IMG/VR virus record: IMGVR_UViG_3300020204_000065
Location: 470 to 64,469 of that record
Source of the DNA: a virus
Lineage: Duplodnaviria; Caudoviricetes
Strand: one strand, 5' to 3'
DNA length: 64,000 nt
Part shown: piece after piece, positions 2,823 through 62,903 of the stretch
Position numbering within the stretch: the first letter of the stretch is position 1
Layout of the letters: each line of letters starts with the position of its first letter
Notes under the pieces: model-generated
Told to the model about the DNA's origin: nothing
Seen by the model: the letters and a program-made list of their open reading frames with translations, nothing else
Database searches by the model: none
Translations under genes and position numbers: made by a program

Positions 2823-2997
2823 TGTTCTGTGGATTGAGGTTAGTAATGTCGACGCCAACCATGGCACCTGCCGTCATCACTGCGATAGCAATGACGAAGA
2901 GGGTGCATAAGACATTGAAACGGCGTGTCTCACGAGACTCACCGTAAGAATCAAGTCTGATGTAACGGTTGCGTCCGAGTCGTGTTGTGTGTTTCAT
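2794..2997 (-). CDS. small membrane protein
   Basis: 67 aa from MKHTTR, one hydrophobic helix (VLCTLFVIAIAVMTAGAMVGV). Confidence 0.55.
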   Translation of the reverse strand: MKHTTRLGRNRYIRLDSYGESRETRRFNVLCTLFVIAIAVMTAGAMVGVDITNLNPQNNENTRRPGR

Positions 2998-2998
2998 G

Positions 2999-3268
2999 TC
3001 AGTTAGTAGCGAGGATGTAACGAACACAAACCAAAGGATCTGGTTTGAACCCAGGCGGTAGTTCTTCTGCGTAGAACCACTCGCCTTTGACATCAATTGA
3101 GATTGTGTCGTAGTTTTCAATAAGTCCCAAAGCATTGTTGTACTTGGTGCACCAAATGATGTATACACAATTGGACTCAAACAATATGTAGTAAGAGTCT
3201 TTGTCTATTCCAAAATCATTGAGTGCCTTTTGAATGTCTGAGTTGTCAATTGTGATTGGTAATGACAT
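2999..3268 (-). CDS. hypothetical protein
   Basis: 89 aa from MSLPIT. Confidence 0.55.
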   Translation of the reverse strand: MSLPITIDNSDIQKALNDFGIDKDSYYILFESNCVYIIWCTKYNNALGLIENYDTISIDVKGEWFYAEELPPGFKPDPLVCVRYILATN

Positions 3269-3346
3269 AGTGTTGTATGCAATGGATGCAGGATTTTCAG
3301 TCCTGCAGAAACCCATCGAAATCGATGGGAATGTGCAAGAGTGATA

Positions 3347-3742
3347 TCAGAAAGCAATCTCTTCCAGCGTAGGAGTTGCCATTGGTGTAGCCTCCGGCTT
3401 AGGCTGAGGCTTGGAACCAAAGGCATAACTCATGCAACGGAATTGTACTTCCGGCATCTTGAGCGGTGTCAGGACATCGTCTTTCATGTAGAAAGCACGA
3501 ATGCCTCTGATGGTACCGCTGATGGTCAGCTCTTGCCCTACGACAAGAGTGCCATTGTTGTATGCCGTAAGCAACCCGTTGCTGTTGGTGAACTTGATAC
3601 GGAGGTCTGCTGTTTCGGAGATGGTATGGACCAGGGATACAGCAAGGAACTTGCGATCCTGGTACTCAGCCACCTCCATGTGAGCAATACGTCCGTGCAG
3701 TACGGTTTGCTGGAAGTCAGGGAGCTTCTTGTAGTCAGTCAT
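3347..3742 (-). CDS. single-stranded DNA-binding protein-like (OB fold)
   Basis: VLHGRI...VGQELTISGTI pattern and acidic-Phe tail EEIAF resembling SSB DDIPF. Confidence 0.6.
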   Translation of the reverse strand: MTDYKKLPDFQQTVLHGRIAHMEVAEYQDRKFLAVSLVHTISETADLRIKFTNSNGLLTAYNNGTLVVGQELTISGTIRGIRAFYMKDDVLTPLKMPEVQFRCMSYAFGSKPQPKPEATPMATPTLEEIAF

Positions 3743-3815
3743 TTGAATTGAGTTGAGTTGAACAAAGCAGGAGTTGAGTCCTGCAGTAAAGGGCCGTAGC
3801 CCCTTAGAGCAAGAA

Positions 3816-4025
3816 TCATTGGTTGACAATGTATTTAGTCTCGATGCAGTAATATGTATCGCCAAGAAAGCCACGGGAGAGAATCAGGTTATGACCTGGT
3901 CTCTGATGGCATGTGTCCTTGTAATACTGGTTGAGCATCTTCTGACCGATAACGGACAGAATCATGCCAACACCAGTGCCAAGGACAACGGCAATTACTG
4001 AATCTGAGAAGTAGTTGCGTGTCAT
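3816..4025 (-). CDS. small membrane protein
   Basis: 69 aa, N-terminal hydrophobic helix, two Cys. Confidence 0.6.
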   Translation of the reverse strand: MTRNYFSDSVIAVVLGTGVGMILSVIGQKMLNQYYKDTCHQRPGHNLILSRGFLGDTYYCIETKYIVNQ

Positions 4026-4056
4026 GTTTCAGTTGAGTTGATTGTGTTGACTAAGA

Positions 4057-4305
4057 TCACATCATTTGGTAGATGCGTTCTTGTTCAAGGATGATACCTT
4101 CGTGATAGTAGTTCTCCATCTCGAGAAGCATCTCCTTGATACCTGCGGGAACACCAAAGCCAAGGGTACGGACATCTCTGTCGTACCACTCGCCTTGAAT
4201 GTTGAGCTTCTCGAAGTGAAGTTGTGTACTCTCACCGCCATACCATGCAACACGCAGGTTGTGTTCGCAGGAAGGCTGATAGATCATTACAGGAGTCATG
4301 GTCAC
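4057..4305 (-). CDS. hypothetical protein
   Basis: 82-aa ORF whose start overlaps the upstream stop (GTGA). Confidence 0.6.
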   Translation of the reverse strand: MTMTPVMIYQPSCEHNLRVAWYGGESTQLHFEKLNIQGEWYDRDVRTLGFGVPAGIKEMLLEMENYYHEGIILEQERIYQMM

Positions 4306-18325: not shown

Positions 18326-20575
18326 ATGGCTGTAGACGCTAAGGCCAGACTTAACGAAATTGTTGAGTCGTATCTAGAGAAAGACTCTGGTACGGTCGTA
18401 GATACGGGCGTTGTTGCGTCGCACCTAGCCCAGATGAAACTCTTTGGTATTCGCCAAGGAGTTGAATTTTTTCCAGGTCAAGACAACTTTGGCGCCCAGC
18501 GCAAAGACTTTATTGACCGTGTAATTAAATACAACCAAATTGACATTCGCCTTGATTCTATTTGGGATTACTTCCTGTGCGATGGTAAAGGCATTTTCTA
18601 TATACGGCCCACCAAGCAAAACTATCGTATTTATTATTTCCGCGAACACGAGTATCGCAGTTATTACAACGTAGATGGTGAGCTCGATGAGGTGGTGATC
18701 ATCTACAGCTACAAGGTGCGTAAAGCGGGTAGCTCGCATGATGGTATTAATGTCACCAACATAACCGGCACTTCAATTACGGGTGAGCCAGGAGCAAAGC
18801 GTTATATTCGTTTATCAATCAAAGCAAATGAAATTGAGGAAACTCATTCTGATGCTGAGATGACTTTTGACATGCCATCTGGTATGTCTCCCGGTAAAAC
18901 AAAAACATTTAAAAATTCGCTTGGGTTTATCCCCTGCGTTGAGATCTTTAATAATCCGAAGGGATTTGCAAAAGAAGGTGTTGGAGAATTTGACGCATTA
19001 GCCAATCACATCGTGACGCACGATGATTTGGTGCGTACCATGCGTAAAAACGTTCAGTTCTTTGGTAACCCAACTCTCCTTTCGTCTCGCCCCAAGACTG
19101 ACCTTATGGAGTCAGGCGGCGACTCGGTTGTTCAGCGTCCTTCGATTGCGGCAAACTCTGGCTTCGCTGGTGCCAGCCCACTGAGCCGTTCAACCTTTAA
19201 GTCCGATCCAATTTCCCGTGGTGTTGACGGTCAGATCCGCGTGCCACGTGTGATTGCAAACCTGGAGCCAAACGACCGTGTCGGTTACATTGTTCCAGAC
19301 GCCATCACTGGTGATCAAAATAATTTTGCACGTCAATACCGAGAGGAAATTCGTACTGCCTTAGGCGGCGTTGACGAACTTTCAATTTCTGCAGGCGTTA
19401 CCGCAACGGAGTACAAATCTCTGTTCGGCCGTGTGTCGGCAACATCGAAAAAGAAAGCAAATGCAGTTTACACCTATGGCATTTGTCGTTGCCTCGAACT
19501 GATTATATATCAAGAAGAGCAACTGTTTCGGATGTCACTTGCTGCCGCACTTGGTATTGAGCGTCCAATTGAACCTGCAGCTGATGCTTCTAAAGAAGAA
19601 AAAGATGCCTATACGGAGGCTGCAACTCAATTTGAAGCACAAGTCCAGGATGCAATTAATGCTGCTATTCAGGCACAAACTGTTCCCCCTGGTGTAACTG
19701 GACTCATCCCAGATGGTGATGTCACTATGCTGTGGAGGTGGACGGGGCCTGTTTATGAGGACTCCACGCAAGACGTACTTAACAACTCCATTGTGGTGCG
19801 CAACTTACAAGAATTAGGTGTTGATAGCATTGAAGCACTGAAATACCTCTTCCCGTCTAAAACGGATGAGGAACGGGCCGAGATGTTATCTGGGTTCCCG
19901 TTCAGGATGGTGAGTGAACTACAGGGCGCTTTTGCTCAATTCTCTCGCCTGGTGGGTGGCCTGATGCAGACCCCTCACCCGCAGTCACCGAACCTTCCGA
20001 TGGCTGCCGATCCCAGGTTGGATTTAACTCCATATCTGTATCGAACATTAGAGGCTTTACAAAAGGAGATGAGTTATGCAGGACGCTACCGTCCAATCGA
20101 TCCCACAGACGAGCCCGACTCCGGCAGTAGCGCCGAGCAGTTACGTGACTCCGTCTTACCAGCCGAGCCAAGCCCCGGTCTCGTACCAAGCAGCCCCGGT
20201 GAGCTACCAGGCGGCAGCACCTCAGGCGGCCCCGGTTTACCAACCCTCAGCCCCTACTCAGTACGCCCCCCAATACCAACCGGCGGAAGTACAGAGCAAC
20301 CCCTGGGAATCGGCGTTCAACAAAGTAGTGAATCTACTGAGCGCACCAGTTCAATCCCCGTTCCAGGGTCAACCGTCAGCTCCGACGACGACCTACGCCC
20401 CGGCCAATTACGGTTCGACCAGCAGCCCAGCTACGCAACCATCGGTTCCGCAGACCTGGTCAACCAACCAGGTTTACTCGCCCAGCTCTTCCCCAACCTA
20501 CTCGGAGGGTCTGAGCCAGGAAAGCCAGCAAGTAATCGCAGCGTTCGGAAGCGAAGCTCCCGCAATTCTAAATAA
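18326..20575 (+). CDS. portal protein with long overlapping C-terminal tail
   Basis: 749 aa between TerL and MCP; NSLGFIPCVEIFNNP resembles the portal LGxxPxV motif. Confidence 0.8.
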   Translation: MAVDAKARLNEIVESYLEKDSGTVVDTGVVASHLAQMKLFGIRQGVEFFPGQDNFGAQRKDFIDRVIKYNQIDIRLDSIWDYFLCDGKGIFYIRPTKQNYRIYYFREHEYRSYYNVDGELDEVVIIYSYKVRKAGSSHDGINVTNITGTSITGEPGAKRYIRLSIKANEIEETHSDAEMTFDMPSGMSPGKTKTFKNSLGFIPCVEIFNNPKGFAKEGVGEFDALANHIVTHDDLVRTMRKNVQFFGNPTLLSSRPKTDLMESGGDSVVQRPSIAANSGFAGASPLSRSTFKSDPISRGVDGQIRVPRVIANLEPNDRVGYIVPDAITGDQNNFARQYREEIRTALGGVDELSISAGVTATEYKSLFGRVSATSKKKANAVYTYGICRCLELIIYQEEQLFRMSLAAALGIERPIEPAADASKEEKDAYTEAATQFEAQVQDAINAAIQAQTVPPGVTGLIPDGDVTMLWRWTGPVYEDSTQDVLNNSIVVRNLQELGVDSIEALKYLFPSKTDEERAEMLSGFPFRMVSELQGAFAQFSRLVGGLMQTPHPQSPNLPMAADPRLDLTPYLYRTLEALQKEMSYAGRYRPIDPTDEPDSGSSAEQLRDSVLPAEPSPGLVPSSPGELPGGSTSGGPGLPTLSPYSVRPPIPTGGSTEQPLGIGVQQSSESTERTSSIPVPGSTVSSDDDLRPGQLRFDQQPSYATIGSADLVNQPGLLAQLFPNLLGGSEPGKPASNRSVRKRSSRNSK

Positions 20576-21002
20576 TTATGCCCTTCAGCTTGAAGGTCTG
20601 CTGGATAGTGCTGTCGCTTGGGGTCAGGAAATGACCGAAACTCTCAAGCAATATGCCGAATTTGCTACCAATGAGCACACCGAGAATCTTGCTTATAACG
20701 AGATTCTGACTAACCCTGATGTGCTGAGCGATTACACCCTTCGGTTCTTCGGTCCCGAAGGTCCGTACCCTGTGCATGAAGGTGAGGAAGACCTGGAAGC
20801 TTACGGCTATCCAACTGAGCAAGTTGATCCATATGCTTATGGTGAATTCCCTGCTCCTCCCGCCGCATCTGCTCCCCAGCAGCCCGCCAACTTCTGGGGC
20901 ACCTTCAACGAGATCATGGCGCGTGATCCCCAGAATGCATGGCGCGTTCTGAACCAGGCTCAGCCCAACATGGTGTCAAACAAACTCTTCGTAATGGAGT
21001 GA
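20076..21002 (+). CDS. capsid scaffolding protein candidate
   Basis: AAGGAG SD upstream; P/Q/Y low-complexity N-half, acidic helical C-half; precedes MCP. Confidence 0.7.
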   Translation: MQDATVQSIPQTSPTPAVAPSSYVTPSYQPSQAPVSYQAAPVSYQAAAPQAAPVYQPSAPTQYAPQYQPAEVQSNPWESAFNKVVNLLSAPVQSPFQGQPSAPTTTYAPANYGSTSSPATQPSVPQTWSTNQVYSPSSSPTYSEGLSQESQQVIAAFGSEAPAILNNYALQLEGLLDSAVAWGQEMTETLKQYAEFATNEHTENLAYNEILTNPDVLSDYTLRFFGPEGPYPVHEGEEDLEAYGYPTEQVDPYAYGEFPAPPAASAPQQPANFWGTFNEIMARDPQNAWRVLNQAQPNMVSNKLFVME

Positions 21003-21523: not shown

Positions 21524-21620
21524 CTTTTGAGTTACCACCTGCTAAAATTTTTGTTAGATAAGACACATGTGTCTTTATCTTTCACCCGATAAAAACACTG
21601 ACACTGGAGGATAAACCAAA

Positions 21621-23609
21621 GTGTTCATTGATAGCTAGTTCAGATCCTGGTAGGTATGACCCTTCAAGATTTGGTAAATAGCTCCGTGGTTGCAATCAAA
21701 CTTTTCAGCAATCTTTCGATAAGAAAGTCCAGCCTCTTTTAAAGATTTGATCTGAGCCACGTCATCCGAAGAAAACTTTCTCAAAGACTTCTTCGGTTTT
21801 CCTTTACTGGCAAAACCATTGTTTTTATAACAACCGTTTTTCCAGGCTCTTGTTAAATTCTTTTGTTTGGTAACGATCTCAAGATTGTCAAGTTGATTAT
21901 TTCTCTTGTCATTATCTTTGTGATCAACTTGCAAGGAAAAGTTACTGGTTCCATGGGAACGCAGGTCTAATCCTAAAAAAGCAACAGCCATCAAGACGTG
22001 AAGATGAAAACGTTTTCTCTTCCCATCAACAAGAACTGAAACACGGTCATAAACACTGGTCGAACGAACAGGAATCTCTCGAAAATATTCTTGATTATCG
22101 GGATCAAGTTGTTTTTCAAAAGGTTTTCCTTCTTCTGTTAAGTAAAGATTACCAAATCCAGGTACAAGTTTTGGACTCATGTTGTTCATAAACAAGTTTC
22201 CAAATGATAATATACCTCAACTGAACGCTCAACGTTGTCACCTCACCGAGCAATCGATGAGTGCAAACCGGATGAATTCAGGGAAGCCCTAACGTAAAGA
22301 CGAGGGTAATCCTGAGCCAAGCCAATCAAGTCGTGATTGGAAGGTGCAGAGACTACTGGGGGTAACACGATCTTGTTACGTAATACCAGATTTAGCGTCC
22401 GGCATCCCTCAGGGATGAAGAGATAGTCCACCCCTCTAAGAAACTAGAGACCAGGAGAACGACTTTCCAAAGATTTTAGGTGCGGAACTTTATCGTCCCC
22501 ACCCTGCATATATTGCCGAGATGGCAGTCGAGCCTGTGGTCGTTCATGACTTCACTCGTCAGCCTGGTCAGACCGTTCAGTTAGACCGCTATAAGTTCTG
22601 GGGTACCCCTGGTACTAAGGACAGCCGTGAGCGTATTGCCGATCAGACCATCGGTACCGCCAACAGCCGTAACATCACCAAGGAGAAAGTCCTGGTGGTG
22701 CTTAAGGAATACACTGGTCCTGCAGATCCGGGTGATCCGACCCAGCCTTCGACCTTCAAGATTGCTCGTGAAACCCTGATTACCGCCCAGCGCCTGCTGC
22801 TGGACACCGGTAATCTCAACATGTTCCACCAGTCAATTGGTAGCCTCACCCTGTTGGATGACTACCGCCGCTGGCGCGACCGTGTCTTTATTGACGAACT
22901 TGCCAAAGCAGAAGCTAACGGTGAAGCTTCCAGCACCCAGGGTGGTTACTACTTCCCAGGTAGCAAGAACAAAGCTGCCAATGGTTCGATCTCTTACACC
23001 GCTGCTGAGTTCACCGCTGAAGTGCAGCAGTTCCAGGTGCGCACTGACCTTCTGACCATTGTTAAGGACCTGCGTAAGCGCAACGTTCCTACCTTCGCTG
23101 ATGGTCTGTATCGTTGCATCTGCGATCCCACCTTCATGATGCACCTGCGTCGTGATACTGACTTCCGTGAGATCGCTCGTTACGCTGGTAACCCTGGCCA
23201 AGGCATGTACATGGGCAACCCCATGATGCCTAACAACGCCAGCTTCTACATGGGTCCCCAGGCTGGTCAAGGTTACTTCCTGGCTGGCGAACCTGTGATG
23301 CCTACCGGCGTTCAGTTCGAAGGTGTGAAGTTCTTCGAGTCGACCAACTTCCCCACTAAGAACGTTCAAGCTTCGTTCGATGCTGGCTCCAGCTACAGCT
23401 CCCAGGAAGTGGCCCAAGGTTACTTCTTCGGTCCTCAGTCTGTCGGTGTGGGTATTGGCGGTCCGAACGCACAAGTTCTGATCAACAATAACGACGATTT
23501 CAGTCGTTTTATCATCCTGATTTGGCAACTTTACGCTGGTTTCGAGATCCTCAACAAGGACTTTGTTACCACCGCGTTCAGCTTCGTGTCTGATGACGGC
23601 AACGTCTGA
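21621..23609 (+). CDS. major capsid protein, spliced: exon 1 21621-21632 + exon 2 22458-23609 (387 aa)
   Basis: GGAGG SD then GTG TTC ATT GAT; joining gives MFID|NDFPKILGAELYRPHPAYIAE-MAVEP in frame; strong C-ending codon bias; GVKFFEST. Confidence 0.88.
21633..22457 (+). mobile_element. group I self-splicing intron (825 nt)
   Basis: exon ends in U, intron ends in G; P AATTCAGGGAA 22275, Q AATCCTGAGC 22308, R GTGCAGAGACTA 22344, S GAAGAGATAGTCC 22417; P3 CCGGATG/CGTCCGG; IGS GTTGTCA 22234-22240. Confidence 0.93.
21635..22195 (-). CDS. intron-encoded HNH homing endonuclease (antisense)
   Basis: HVLMAVAFL...VDHKDNDKRNNQLDNLEIVTKQKN plus C-terminal HTH. Confidence 0.9.
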   Translation of the reverse strand: MFMNNMSPKLVPGFGNLYLTEEGKPFEKQLDPDNQEYFREIPVRSTSVYDRVSVLVDGKRKRFHLHVLMAVAFLGLDLRSHGTSNFSLQVDHKDNDKRNNQLDNLEIVTKQKNLTRAWKNGCYKNNGFASKGKPKKSLRKFSSDDVAQIKSLKEAGLSYRKIAEKFDCNHGAIYQILKGHTYQDLN

Positions 23610-62829: not shown

Positions 62830-62903
62830 CGGGGATTAGCGCAGTTTGGTAGCGCAATTGCTTTGGGAGCAATGGGTCGCAGGTTCAAATCCTGCATTCT
62901 CGA
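62830..62903 (+). tRNA. trnP: tRNA-Pro (TGG), CCA not encoded
   Basis: full cloverleaf; anticodon loop TTTGGGA; T-loop TTCAAAT. Confidence 0.95.

What the first reader, a model, noticed from the sequence alone, without database searches (positions are those of the whole stretch)
21621..22457. Major capsid gene split after codon 4 by a group I intron whose P1 loop holds an antisense homing endonuclease
Seen: a 12-nt first exon (GTG TTC ATT GAT) behind GGAGG. Unspliced RNA stops at once (AGC TAG). The IGS GTTGTCA (22234-40) pairs with TGAT|AGC with the U-G wobble at the 5' splice site, and CGTT can pair with exon-2 AACG (P10). GTTCAG (21638-43) and CTGAAC (22221-26) close a ~580-nt loop filled by an HNH ORF on the opposite strand, with a possible promoter (TTGAGC-N17-TATCAT) overlapping the P1 3' strand. 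Known: phage group I introns mostly sit in DNA-metabolism genes and carry same-strand endonucleases. Inference: all capsid synthesis depends on splicing, and the antisense transcript is complementary to P1 and could gate capsid production.
Basis: partly seen in the sequence, partly recalled or inferred. Interest (0 to 1): 0.82.

Follow-up and report, generated by a model that had tools for sequence, protein, structure and literature searches.

The report
Capsid-gene intron carrying backwards homing endonuclease
The coat-protein gene of this freshwater cyanophage is interrupted after its fourth codon by a self-splicing, mobile group I intron that carries its DNA-cutting "homing" gene on the opposite strand; it is a clear example of a rare layout already reported once in a mycobacteriophage.

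Summary
Observation confirmed. Rfam RF00028 scores 96.9 bits at 22208-22450. Intronless relatives, including Synechococcus phage S-EIVl, read exon 1 and exon 2 as one continuous frame at exactly the predicted junction. Of 81 related loci, 54 lack the intron, 18 carry intron plus endonuclease gene, 2 carry a 276-nt intron without it, and 7 are cut by contig ends. The 276-nt forms place the endonuclease gene in the P1 loop.

The antisense HNH gene resembles I-HmuI. It is intact in 19 of 19 copies, with median dN/dS 0.10. It has a conserved -35 / TGn-TAnnnT promoter.

Intron presence is scattered on the capsid tree: 19 changes over 82 rows. It is tightly linked only to the 150 nt upstream: 3 changes against 13-15 elsewhere. 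This indicates active homing.

Metatranscriptome contigs contain the exact junction. They cannot be told apart from transcripts of intronless relatives.

The idea that the antisense transcript gates capsid synthesis has no evidence. A capsid-gene intron with a reverse-strand endonuclease gene is published for mycobacteriophage LittleE (PMC3706429). This scan also noted the same arrangement before, on other DNA (e1-6105717). Verdict: real, mobile, well supported, and a new member of a known kind.

The parts
21606..21610 (+). Shine-Dalgarno-like GGAGG, 10 nt upstream of the capsid start codon
   Evidence: Read directly. The same GGAGGA plus spacer plus GTG is found in relatives.
21621..21632 (+). 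Exon 1 of the major capsid gene: GTG TTC ATT GAT (M F I D)
   Evidence: Intronless alleles read the same 12 nt continuous with exon 2. Exon-1 variants differ only by synonymous or Ile/Leu changes.
21633..22457 (+). Group I intron, 825 nt, from the 5' splice site after U21632 to the terminal G22457
   Evidence: RF00028 core match. The boundaries are fixed by the intronless alleles L044 and S-EIVl. An 824-827-nt homologue sits at the same site in 18 related loci.
21629..21635 (+). P1 5' strand TGAT|AGC (the splice site follows U21632)
   Evidence: Pairs with 22234-22240 at 7 of 7 standard pairs, including the U.G wobble, in 21 of 21 complete introns. The pairs never vary.
21638..21643 (+). P1 extension, 5' strand GTTCAG; also encodes the last codons of the endonuclease on the other strand
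   Evidence: Six standard pairs with 22221-22226 in 21 of 21 introns. There is one compensatory double change, G-C to A-U, in L050.
21635..22180 (-). HNH homing endonuclease gene: 181 aa from the conserved ATG at 22180 (the ORF is open from TTG at 22195), stop TAG at 21637-21635, lying in the P1 loop antisense to the intron
   Evidence: Pfam HNH_3 E 1.2e-8. PHROG 59 HNH endonuclease E 5e-26. PDB 1u3e 'HNH homing endonuclease' E 1.4e-5. Intact in 19 of 19 copies, median dN/dS 0.10.
22204..22232 (-). Promoter of the endonuclease gene: -35 TTGAGC (22232-22227), 17-nt spacer, -10 TATCAT (22209-22204). The -35 lies in the internal loop between the P1 extension and the guide sequence
   Evidence: Consensus scan, 9 of 12 matches. 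Across 19 copies: -35 TTGAGC in 16, -10 TAnnnT in 17 with freely varying inner bases, TGn just upstream in 16.
22221..22226 (+). P1 extension, 3' strand CTGAAC
22233..22240 (+). Internal guide sequence: GTTGTCA (22234-22240) pairs with exon 1 and the intron start (P1); CGTT (22233-22236) can pair with exon-2 AACG (P10)
   Evidence: RNAalifold also pairs these columns with the exon-2 start. All these pairs are invariant, so there is no covariation test.
22208..22450 (+). Catalytic core (P2-P9) matched by Rfam RF00028
   Evidence: 96.9 bits, full-length model match. The consensus fold of 19 copies has 64 pairs, 13 of them with compensatory changes.
22458..23609 (+). Exon 2 of the major capsid gene (residues 5-387 and stop)
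   Evidence: In frame with exon 1. PHROG 1357 'major head protein' E 4.4e-17. 86.5% identical to the S-EIVl ORF. Nearest named Atlas clusters carry Phage_capsid_3/4.

Best explanation
This is a mobile group I intron (825 nt, 21633-22457) inserted after codon 4 of the major capsid gene of an S-EIV1-like freshwater cyanophage.

Splicing. The ribozyme folds with a long-range P1 helix. Exon-1 TGAT plus intron AGC pairs with the guide sequence GTTGTCA about 600 nt downstream, and a GTTCAG/CTGAAC extension closes a 577-nt loop. Splicing joins GAT to AAC and restores the 387-codon capsid frame. Unspliced RNA gives only the peptide MFIDS.

The endonuclease. The P1 loop is filled by an I-HmuI-like HNH homing endonuclease gene on the opposite strand. 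It is transcribed from its own sigma-70-type promoter, whose -35 sits in the P1 internal loop. The enzyme presumably nicks or cuts intronless capsid alleles during mixed infection. Repair then copies in the intron together with roughly 150 nt of upstream leader.

Why antisense (inferred). This orientation uncouples the nuclease from the very strong late capsid transcript. It also keeps ribosomes out of P1 and the ribozyme.

Shown here: the ribozyme, the splice sites, the loop position, purifying selection on the nuclease gene, promoter conservation, the patchy distribution and linkage to the 5' flank.

Inferred: splicing in vivo, nuclease activity and target, timing of expression, and the reason for the orientation.
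For: Ribozyme and splice sites
- RF00028 scores 96.9 bits, E 8.7e-24.
- Intronless S-EIVl and L044 read GTGTTCATTGAT directly followed by A(C/A)CGACTTTCC.
- All 54 of 54 intronless loci show the same junction.
- P1 (7 pairs), the P1 extension (6 pairs, one compensatory change in L050) and P10 (4 pairs) are standard pairs in 21 of 21 complete introns.
- 13 of the 64 consensus core pairs carry compensatory changes across 19 copies. P7 also covaries in L046 (read from the alignment).

Loop position
- Two natural 276-nt introns, L005 and L016, lack the endonuclease gene. They differ from the 825-nt form only between GGTA (21652) and CAACTGAAC.

Endonuclease gene
- Pfam HNH_3, PHROG 59 and PDB 1u3e at E 1.4e-5, with the motif VDHKDNDKRNNQLDNLEIVT aligned.
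- Intact in 19 of 19 copies.
- Median dN/dS 0.10, range 0.03-0.20, over the 167 of 171 pairs with dS above 0.05.
- GC content 37.5% against 53.1% for exon 2.
- Promoter elements conserved in 16-17 of 19 copies while the inner -10 bases vary.

Mobility
- 28 intron rows and 54 intronless rows need at least 19 changes on the capsid tree, 12 of them forced by well-supported branches. The shuffle mean is 23.
- Near-identical pairs differ in intron state, for example L003/L004 and L047/L049.
- A tree of the 150 nt upstream needs only 3 changes. The first 150 nt of exon 2 needs 13, the capsid body 14 and the far upstream region 15. This used 65 loci; shuffle means were about 17.5 and minima 13-14.

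N-terminus is coding
- In codons 5-25, variable sites number 5, 3 and 20 at codon positions 1, 2 and 3. 65 of 82 peptides are identical.
Against: No experiment or strand-specific RNA data show splicing or endonuclease expression in this phage.

The junction contigs in metatranscriptomes could come from intronless relatives. These are one X21 contig joining 21632 to 22458 with a side of only 29 nt, and two X20 contigs carrying exon-1 letters before 22458.

An unspliced 908-nt contig spanning 21569-22475 also stands in an RNA library, X24.

P1 and P10 never vary, apart from one pair of the extension, so covariation support for the splice-site helices is thin.

A single-sequence fold of the natural mini-intron did not recover P1, and its energy was not unusual (z -1.6).

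Linkage of the intron to the 5' flank could reflect target-site preference of the nuclease rather than co-conversion.

The C-terminal HTH match is below Pfam's cut-off (22 bits against 27).
Confidence: 0.92

Rival explanations
1. Regulatory add-on. The antisense endonuclease transcript, or its promoter firing head-on into the capsid gene, gates capsid production. It would do so by pairing with the 5' part of the capsid pre-mRNA (P1 extension, 5' splice site, exon 1, ribosome-binding site), or by transcriptional interference. Capsid synthesis would then start only when the antisense promoter is shut off.
For: The antisense promoter is conserved. The endonuclease stop codon lies only 2 nt inside the intron, so any read-through of 15-30 nt makes the transcript complementary to the 5' splice site, exon 1 and GGAGG. 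A cis-antisense RNA next to an intron and a homing endonuclease gene is documented in cyanophage S-PM2 psbA, with light-dependent splicing (PMC5931967, passages read).
Against: No strand-specific or time-course RNA data exist. The contigs laid cannot show strand. The two natural 276-nt introns lack the antisense gene, and such forms have diversified, so capsid expression does not need it. 54 of 81 relatives have no intron at all. The predicted transcript does not include the complement of the guide sequence. Selfish maintenance of the promoter for nuclease expression explains its conservation fully.
Confidence: 0.1
2. The intron no longer splices. The phage makes an N-terminally shortened capsid protein from the internal ATG at 22521 (MAVEP...), as automatic gene callers assume.
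For: ATG 22521 opens a 362-aa ORF. The ESM Atlas holds the protein only from that residue on. An unspliced contig stands in an RNA library.
Against: The ribozyme core is more conserved than silent sites of the endonuclease gene and keeps its helices through compensatory changes. Codons 5-25 upstream of that ATG evolve as coding sequence in 82 loci, including the intron-bearing ones. GTG plus GGAGG is conserved. The intron is present in 27 of 81 related loci from many samples.
Confidence: 0.03
3. The endonuclease gene is a decaying or domesticated passenger. The intron is now inherited only vertically and its scattered distribution comes from repeated loss.
For: Endonuclease-less introns exist and keep the last five endonuclease codons, so they look like deletion derivatives. 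Counts of changes on a tree cannot separate gain from loss.
Against: The gene is intact in 19 of 19 copies with dN/dS about 0.10. The promoter is conserved. Only the adjacent 150-nt 5' flank is linked to the intron, while sequence on both sides beyond it is unlinked. Vertical descent with simple loss does not predict that pattern.
Confidence: 0.05

Closest known systems
Mycobacteriophage LittleE major capsid gene intron (Pope et al. 2013, PMC3706429; passages read)
   Same: It is an intron of about 820 bp in a phage major capsid gene, with U before the 5' splice site and G at the intron end. Its homing endonuclease gene is on the bottom strand ('transcribed in the leftwards direction'). The intron is optional among close relatives.
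   Different: LittleE's ORF resembles a LAGLIDADG enzyme; this one is an HNH of the I-HmuI type. The authors called LittleE's intron type 'unclear, most likely group I'; here Rfam gives 96.9 bits. The host is an actinobacterial temperate siphovirus rather than a cyanophage. LittleE splicing was shown by RT-PCR and N-terminal sequencing; here it is not shown. The position after codon 4 and the P1-loop location are specific to this case.
Didymium iridis S956-2 nuclear rDNA group I intron with antisense I-DirII (PMC3073962, PMC3679873; passages read)
   Same: The homing endonuclease gene is antisense to the ribozyme and is expressed from its own promoter. Endonuclease genes are known to sit in peripheral loops, P1 included.
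   Different: That case is eukaryotic nucleolar rDNA, with a Pol II promoter, a spliceosomal intron and a poly(A) tail, and a different nuclease family. This case is in a protein-coding phage gene with a bacterial-type promoter.
Bacillus phage SPO1/SP82 DNA polymerase introns encoding I-HmuI/I-HmuII, and cyanophage Pf-WMP3 I-PfoP3I (PDB 1u3e; PMC3428280, passages read)
   Same: The nuclease family is the same: an HNH motif followed by a C-terminal DNA-binding region. All are phage group I introns. These enzymes are nickases that act a few nt from the insertion site.
   Different: In those phages the intron sits in the DNA polymerase gene, not a capsid gene. From recall, not from a call, their endonuclease genes lie on the sense strand. 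Nicking is not tested here.
Cyanophage S-PM2 psbA group I intron with the downstream free-standing F-CphI and the antisense RNA CfrI (PMC5931967, passages read; Millard 2010 seen only as a citation there)
   Same: A cyanophage group I intron is associated with a homing endonuclease and a cis-antisense transcript. Regulated splicing has been proposed.
   Different: There the endonuclease gene is outside the intron and the antisense RNA is non-coding. Here the antisense transcript would be the endonuclease mRNA itself, inside P1.
Lactococcal phage Tuc2009 capsid gene intron (seen only as a statement in the introduction of PMC3706429)
   Same: A group I intron in a phage capsid subunit gene.
   Different: Details were not seen here.

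Membership tests
Group I intron (Rfam RF00028) | Covariance-model score at or above the curated gathering score | tested here: met
   96.9 bits against 50, full-length match to model positions 1-253 at 22208-22450.
Group I intron (Rfam RF00028) | 5' splice site after a U that forms a U.G wobble with the internal guide sequence (P1) | tested here: met
   U21632 pairs with G22237 within a 7-bp P1. The helix is standard in 21 of 21 complete introns but invariant. The site is fixed independently by intronless alleles.
Group I intron (Rfam RF00028) | [quoted passage not shown] | tested here: met
   G22457 precedes exon 2. All 19 aligned copies end in G.
Group I intron (Rfam RF00028) | Conserved core helices P3-P8 kept by compensatory changes | tested here: met
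   The consensus fold of 19 of 22 available copies has 64 pairs, 13 with both-side changes, notably in P2, P6 and the P7.1/7.2-like hairpin. L035, L039 and L079 were left out as duplicates.
Group I intron (Rfam RF00028) | Guanosine-dependent self-splicing, or a spliced junction in RNA of the same phage | tested here: inconclusive
   Metatranscriptome contigs show the exact 21632->22458 joint in X21 and exon-1 letters in front of 22458 in X20. Intronless DNA alleles exist, so the source is ambiguous.
HNH homing endonuclease of the I-HmuI type | HNH catalytic motif | tested here: met
   Pfam HNH_3 at 34.9 bits against a cut-off of 24.8. The motif aligns with 1u3e over residues 43-176, E 1.4e-5.
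HNH homing endonuclease of the I-HmuI type | C-terminal helix-turn-helix DNA-binding module | tested here: inconclusive
   HTH_38 at 22 bits is below its cut-off of 27 and HTH_23 at 19.2 is below 24.6. PHROG 517 'HTH DNA binding protein' gives E 2e-7. The tail aligns with the I-HmuI C-terminus.
HNH homing endonuclease of the I-HmuI type | Site-specific nicking or cleavage of the intronless allele | not testable with these tools
   This needs purified protein and a target such as the L044- or S-EIVl-type junction.
Mobile (homing) intron | Optional presence among close relatives at one fixed site, with flanking-marker linkage | tested here: met
   27 of 81 related loci have the intron, always at the same site. 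The capsid tree needs 19 changes. The 150-nt 5' flank tree needs 3 changes against 13-15 for the other segments.
Group I introns with an antisense endonuclease gene (LittleE, Didymium S956-2) | Endonuclease ORF on the strand opposite to the ribozyme, under selection | tested here: met
   The ORF at 21635-22180 is on the minus strand. It is intact in 19 of 19 copies with dN/dS 0.10.
Group I introns with an antisense endonuclease gene (LittleE, Didymium S956-2) | Independent promoter driving the antisense gene | tested here: inconclusive
   The sequence pattern is conserved: -35 in 16 of 19 copies, TAnnnT in 17 of 19, TGn in 16 of 19. No transcript start has been mapped.

The most novel reading that the evidence does not exclude
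The conserved antisense promoter built into the P1 region makes the endonuclease mRNA a timing device. Early in infection, host-polymerase transcription from 22232-22204 runs head-on through the 5' splice site, exon 1 and the ribosome-binding site of the capsid gene. This would block P1 formation or translation start. Full capsid synthesis would begin only when late transcription overwhelms it. The 5' splice site lies only 12 nt after the start codon, inside the footprint of an initiating ribosome. Splicing, translation start and antisense pairing would therefore all compete for the same 30 nt.
Probability: 0.1. Interest if true: 0.72.

Novelty: new member of a known kind. Interest (0 to 1): 0.38.

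Why it matters
First, it corrects the annotation of a widespread freshwater cyanophage lineage. Gene callers start the capsid protein at MAVEP, 25 residues too late, and miss both the intron and the 12-nt first exon.

Second, it offers an unusually complete natural series in one population: no intron, intron alone, and intron plus antisense endonuclease gene. That makes homing, co-conversion and the endonuclease gain/loss cycle directly measurable from metagenomes. Here the intron drags about 150 nt of the capsid leader with it.

Third, the most highly expressed late gene depends on a ribozyme whose 5' splice site lies within the translation-initiation region. This makes it a good system for studying the interplay of splicing and translation in bacteria.

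It is not a new principle, because the layout has a published precedent.

Tried and rejected
Single-sequence folding of the natural 276-nt intron L005 with its exon ends gave neither P1 nor an unusual energy (z -1.6, 12 of 200 shuffles as good). This is uninformative for a pseudoknotted ribozyme.

Pfam gave nothing for the capsid protein or its neighbours, and the PDB sequence search gave no hit for the capsid protein. The capsid assignment rests on PHROG 1357, Atlas neighbours and gene order. No structure was predicted.

Depth differences between exon 2 and the intron in the RNA contigs were not used. The tool states that contig depth cannot rank parts of a gene, and intronless relatives contribute to exon depth. 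Parts without cover in X19 and X24 are likewise not evidence.

The terminator scan gave 5 sites against 2.3 expected. The only site downstream of the endonuclease gene (21598-21569, minus strand) is a poor call with no real T-run, so the 3' end of the antisense transcript is unknown.

I tested whether the capsid-sense strand across the endonuclease gene is kept open, a 'mirror frame' noted by earlier agents on other phages. It is not: there are 14, 4 and 6 stops in the three frames.

There is no second copy of the endonuclease in the window and no second group I intron in the 64,469-base record.

Literature searches listed no paper describing an intron in the capsid gene of S-EIV1-like cyanophages. 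Of the 6 papers holding both 'S-EIV1' and 'intron' I opened 2; their intron mentions concern other genes. The S-EIV1 genome paper (Chenard 2015) is not held, so I could not check virion proteomics. Supplements were not consulted. The supplements of PMC3706429 may hold more detail on the LittleE intron.

The remark that ribosomes and in-frame stops influence td intron splicing is recalled, not from a call.
Full report
WHAT IS THERE. The window is a 64,469-base IMG/VR virus record, about 81% complete. Its closest named relative is Synechococcus phage S-EIVl, a polar freshwater cyanophage. At the finding's coordinates the sequence reads GGAGG (21606-10), then 10 nt, then GTG TTC ATT GAT (21621-32), then AGC TAG. 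A minus-strand ORF fills 21635-22195. From 22458 the frame AAC GAC TTT CCA AAG... runs without a stop into the 362-aa ORF that gene callers start at ATG 22521, and on to 23609.

IT IS A GROUP I INTRON. Rfam RF00028 matches 22208-22450 full length at 96.9 bits against a gathering score of 50, E 8.7e-24. It is the only such match in the record. The model's own P1 was forced onto local sequence with mismatches, as expected if the true 5' strand lies far upstream. By blastn the core is related at about 70-78% identity to introns in terminase, DNA polymerase and psbA genes of other phages. Between P7 and the 3' strand of P3 there is an extra hairpin pair, CUGG...CCAG around GUAACA...UGUUAC. I read this, from memory of the classification, as the P7.1/P7.2 extension of subgroup IA. 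That subgroup label is not a tool result.

THE SPLICE SITES ARE FIXED BY INTRONLESS ALLELES. S-EIVl reads GTGTTCATTGAT ACCGACTTTCCTAAG as one ORF of 383 aa beginning MFIDTDFPKILGAELYRPHPAYICEMAVEP. Environmental locus L044 reads GTGTTCATTGAT AACGACTTTCCAAAG, which is exactly the predicted ligated exons. A search of IMG/VR with exon 2 confirmed 596 relatives, of which the tool kept the best 80. I classified those 80 plus S-EIVl:
- 54 are intronless, all with the same junction.
- 18 have an 824-827-nt intron with the ORF.
- 2 (L005, L016) have a 276-nt intron without the ORF.
- 7 have the intron but are cut by a contig end.
The insertion site is the same in all 27 intron-bearing loci. The A at 21633 equals the A at 22458, so the product alone would allow a 1-nt shift. 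Only the GAT| ... GAG| choice places a U before the 5' site and a G at the intron end.

THE N-TERMINUS IS REAL CODING SEQUENCE. Across 82 sequences, codons 5-25 (upstream of the internal ATG) have 5, 3 and 20 variable sites at codon positions 1, 2 and 3. 65 of the 82 peptides are identical. Exon-1 variants are synonymous or Ile/Leu changes, and the GTG is invariant in the 75 exon-1 matches counted. That test comes out in favour of the finding. The ESM Atlas holds this protein only from residue 22 of exon 2, read as M. Automatic annotation is therefore misled by the intron.

THE GENE IS THE MAJOR CAPSID GENE. PHROG 1357 'major head protein' matches at E 4.4e-17. The nearest named Atlas clusters carry Phage_capsid_3/4 on a minority to a majority of their members. 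The gene follows a 749-aa virion structural (portal-like) gene, PHROG 20475. Pfam and the PDB sequence search gave nothing. I did not predict a structure.

RIBOZYME STRUCTURE AND COVARIATION. In 21 of 21 complete introns three helices are all standard pairs:
- P1: TGAT|AGC with GTTGTCA, 7 pairs.
- The P1 extension: GTTCAG with CTGAAC, 6 pairs.
- P10: exon-2 AACG with CGTT, 4 pairs.
P1 and P10 never vary, so they are neither supported nor contradicted by covariation. The extension has one compensatory G-C to A-U change, in L050, across the roughly 580-nt insert. A consensus fold of 19 copies recovers P2 (with a GCAA tetraloop), P3, P4, P5, P6, the extra hairpin, P8 and P9. It has 64 pairs, 13 of them with both-side changes. 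Three duplicates of the 22 available copies were left out. L046 changes both strands of P7 in step (alignment).

THE ENDONUCLEASE GENE SITS IN THE P1 LOOP, ANTISENSE. The two natural 276-nt introns are collinear with the 825-nt form. The exception is that GGTA (21649-52) is followed by a short hairpin (AAACAA-loop-TTGTTT) and then CAACTGAAC. Two further loop variants of this short form appear in metatranscriptome contigs (table 5c). The insert therefore lies between the two strands of the P1 extension. The short forms keep the complement of the last five endonuclease codons (YQDLN), with the stop changed. This suggests they arose by deletion of the gene. That direction is an inference.

THE ENDONUCLEASE PROTEIN. 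It matches Pfam HNH_3, PHROG 59 and the crystal-structure sequence 1u3e 'HNH homing endonuclease' over residues 43-176. The name I-HmuI of phage SPO1 for that entry is my recollection, consistent with PMC3428280. About 30%-identical HNH homing endonucleases occur in many phages. Further properties:
- All 19 copies, window included, are intact with a TAG stop.
- 18 of 19 start at the ATG corresponding to 22180; L021 has GTG.
- Median dN/dS is 0.10 over the 167 of 171 pairs with dS above 0.05, and 107 of 181 residues are invariant.
- Silent divergence reaches dS of about 1.25 against a copy (L021) whose ribozyme core is still 92% identical.
- GC content is 37.5% against 53.1% for exon 2.

ITS PROMOTER. 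On the minus strand the scan finds TTGAGC-17-TATCAT at 22232-22204. As a single site this is not above chance. In the alignment of 19 copies the -35 is TTGAGC in 16. The -10 is TAnnnT in 17, with the three inner bases varying freely. TGn precedes it in 16; the window itself lacks the TG. This is the conservation pattern expected of a working extended -10 promoter. The -35 is the complement of GCTCAA (22227-32), in the internal loop between the P1 extension and the guide sequence. Those bases therefore serve both the RNA and the promoter. The predicted start, near 22197, lies downstream of the guide sequence, so the antisense RNA does not contain its complement. Its 3' coding end is complementary to the 5' strand of the P1 extension. 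Read-through of 15-30 nt would also cover the 5' splice site, exon 1 and the GGAGG.

MOBILITY. A tree was built on exon-2 nucleotides 151-1140 for 82 rows, 28 with the intron. Intron state needs at least 19 changes, 12 of them forced by well-supported branches. Shuffled labels need 23 on average, and 8-13 of 500 shuffles were as low. Pairs such as L003/L004 and L047/L049 differ by under 1% in the capsid body yet differ in intron state.

In such pairs the mismatches pile up just upstream of the site. For L078/L053 they are dense from -7 to -143, with only 3 between -320 and -1100.

The formal test used 65 loci with at least 700 nt upstream, 21 of them with the intron. Changes of intron state needed on trees of different segments were:
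- the 150 nt upstream, including exon 1: 3
- the first 150 nt of exon 2: 13
- the capsid body: 14
- the region -700 to -350: 15
Shuffle means were about 17.5 and minima 13-14. The intron thus travels with about 150 nt of capsid leader and with nothing else. This is the signature of homing with asymmetric co-conversion. Alternatively, the nuclease may accept only that leader haplotype. The related HNH intron enzymes are nickases acting a few nt from the insertion site (PMC3428280, passages read).

RNA EVIDENCE. Four metatranscriptome runs, held as contigs only, were laid at 90% likeness or better:
- One X21 contig joins 21632 to 22458, skipping 825 nt, with a shorter side of 29 nt.
- Two X20 contigs starting at 22458 carry AAAGTGTTCATTGAT in front.
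- X19 and X20 hold the short intron form.
- X24 holds a 908-nt contig across the whole unspliced region.
- One low-depth X21 contig joins 22457 back to 22190.
Intronless alleles exist as DNA and contigs carry no strand. None of this shows splicing of this phage's RNA or expression of the antisense gene. It shows only that the junction sequence is present in environmental RNA libraries.

HOW IT MOST LIKELY WORKS. Shown: the anatomy described above. Inferred:
- Late capsid pre-mRNA folds P1 across the 577-nt loop, binds guanosine, splices and yields the 387-codon mRNA.
- On unspliced RNA, ribosomes make only MFIDS. Their footprint covers the 5' splice site, 12 nt after the start codon, so initiation and P1 formation should compete.
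- The nuclease is made from its own promoter, probably by host polymerase before late transcription dominates. It then attacks intronless alleles in mixed infections.
- The antisense orientation is most simply explained as insulation. The nuclease is uncoupled from the strongest late transcript, and no ribosome has to unwind P1 to translate it.
Endonuclease-less introns and intronless phages thrive, so it is not needed.

COMPARISON AND NOVELTY. Capsid-gene introns are in print for Tuc2009 and LittleE. LittleE's intron of about 820 bp carries its endonuclease ORF on the bottom strand and was shown to splice (PMC3706429). Antisense endonuclease genes with their own promoter, and P1-loop insertions, are known in nuclear rDNA introns (PMC3073962 and PMC3679873). 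An antisense RNA beside an intron and a homing endonuclease gene is known in cyanophage S-PM2 (PMC5931967). This scan has already reported the same codon-4, P1-loop, antisense-HNH arrangement on another genome (e1-6105717). It has also reported antisense LAGLIDADG genes in capsid introns of other uncultured phages.

What is specific to this case:
- the HNH family of the endonuclease
- the exact P1-loop placement, proven by natural deletion forms
- the position inside the translation-initiation region
- population evidence for promoter conservation and for linkage to the 5' flank

I file it as a new member of a known kind, of moderate interest.

Noticed in passing
L001 2917-4143 (GenBank KJ410740.1 60784-62010): In the S-EIVl record the capsid ORF (GTG at locus 2992 to 4143, 383 aa) is not annotated as such. 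The record has a reverse-strand 'hypothetical protein' at 2917-3678 and a short plus-strand CDS at 3673-4143 instead.
   Followed up: partly
window 21560-21584: A near-perfect palindrome (AGATAAGACAC ATG TGTCTTTATCT) lies in the capsid leader. A diverged but still palindromic version is present in S-EIVl. It lies inside the 150-nt flank that travels with the intron. Its function is unknown; it could be a terminator of the upstream gene, an operator or a processing site.
   Followed up: no
window 22457 -> 22190 (RNA run X21): One low-depth metatranscriptome contig joins the last intron base back to 22190, just upstream of the ribozyme core (table 5). This could be a truncated intron circle of about 268 nt or an assembly artefact. 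It cannot be resolved from contigs.
   Followed up: no
L005 1346-1621; L016 1824-2099; RNA runs X19, X20: Endonuclease-less 276-nt introns cap P1 with a hairpin whose stem (AACAA/TTGTT) is constant while its loop differs in four versions. The short form therefore seems to have persisted and diversified.
   Followed up: partly
window 21635-22180 against 22458-23609: The endonuclease gene has 37.5% GC against 53.1% for capsid exon 2 and 46.9% for the window. This is consistent with a foreign origin.
   Followed up: no
window 62830-62903: A tRNA gene, Rfam RF00005 at 65.2 bits, lies near the end of the window.
   Followed up: no
window 20076-20575: The 749-aa portal-like ORF (18326-20575) overlaps the next ORF (20076-21002) by 500 nt in another frame. 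I did not examine it here.
   Followed up: no
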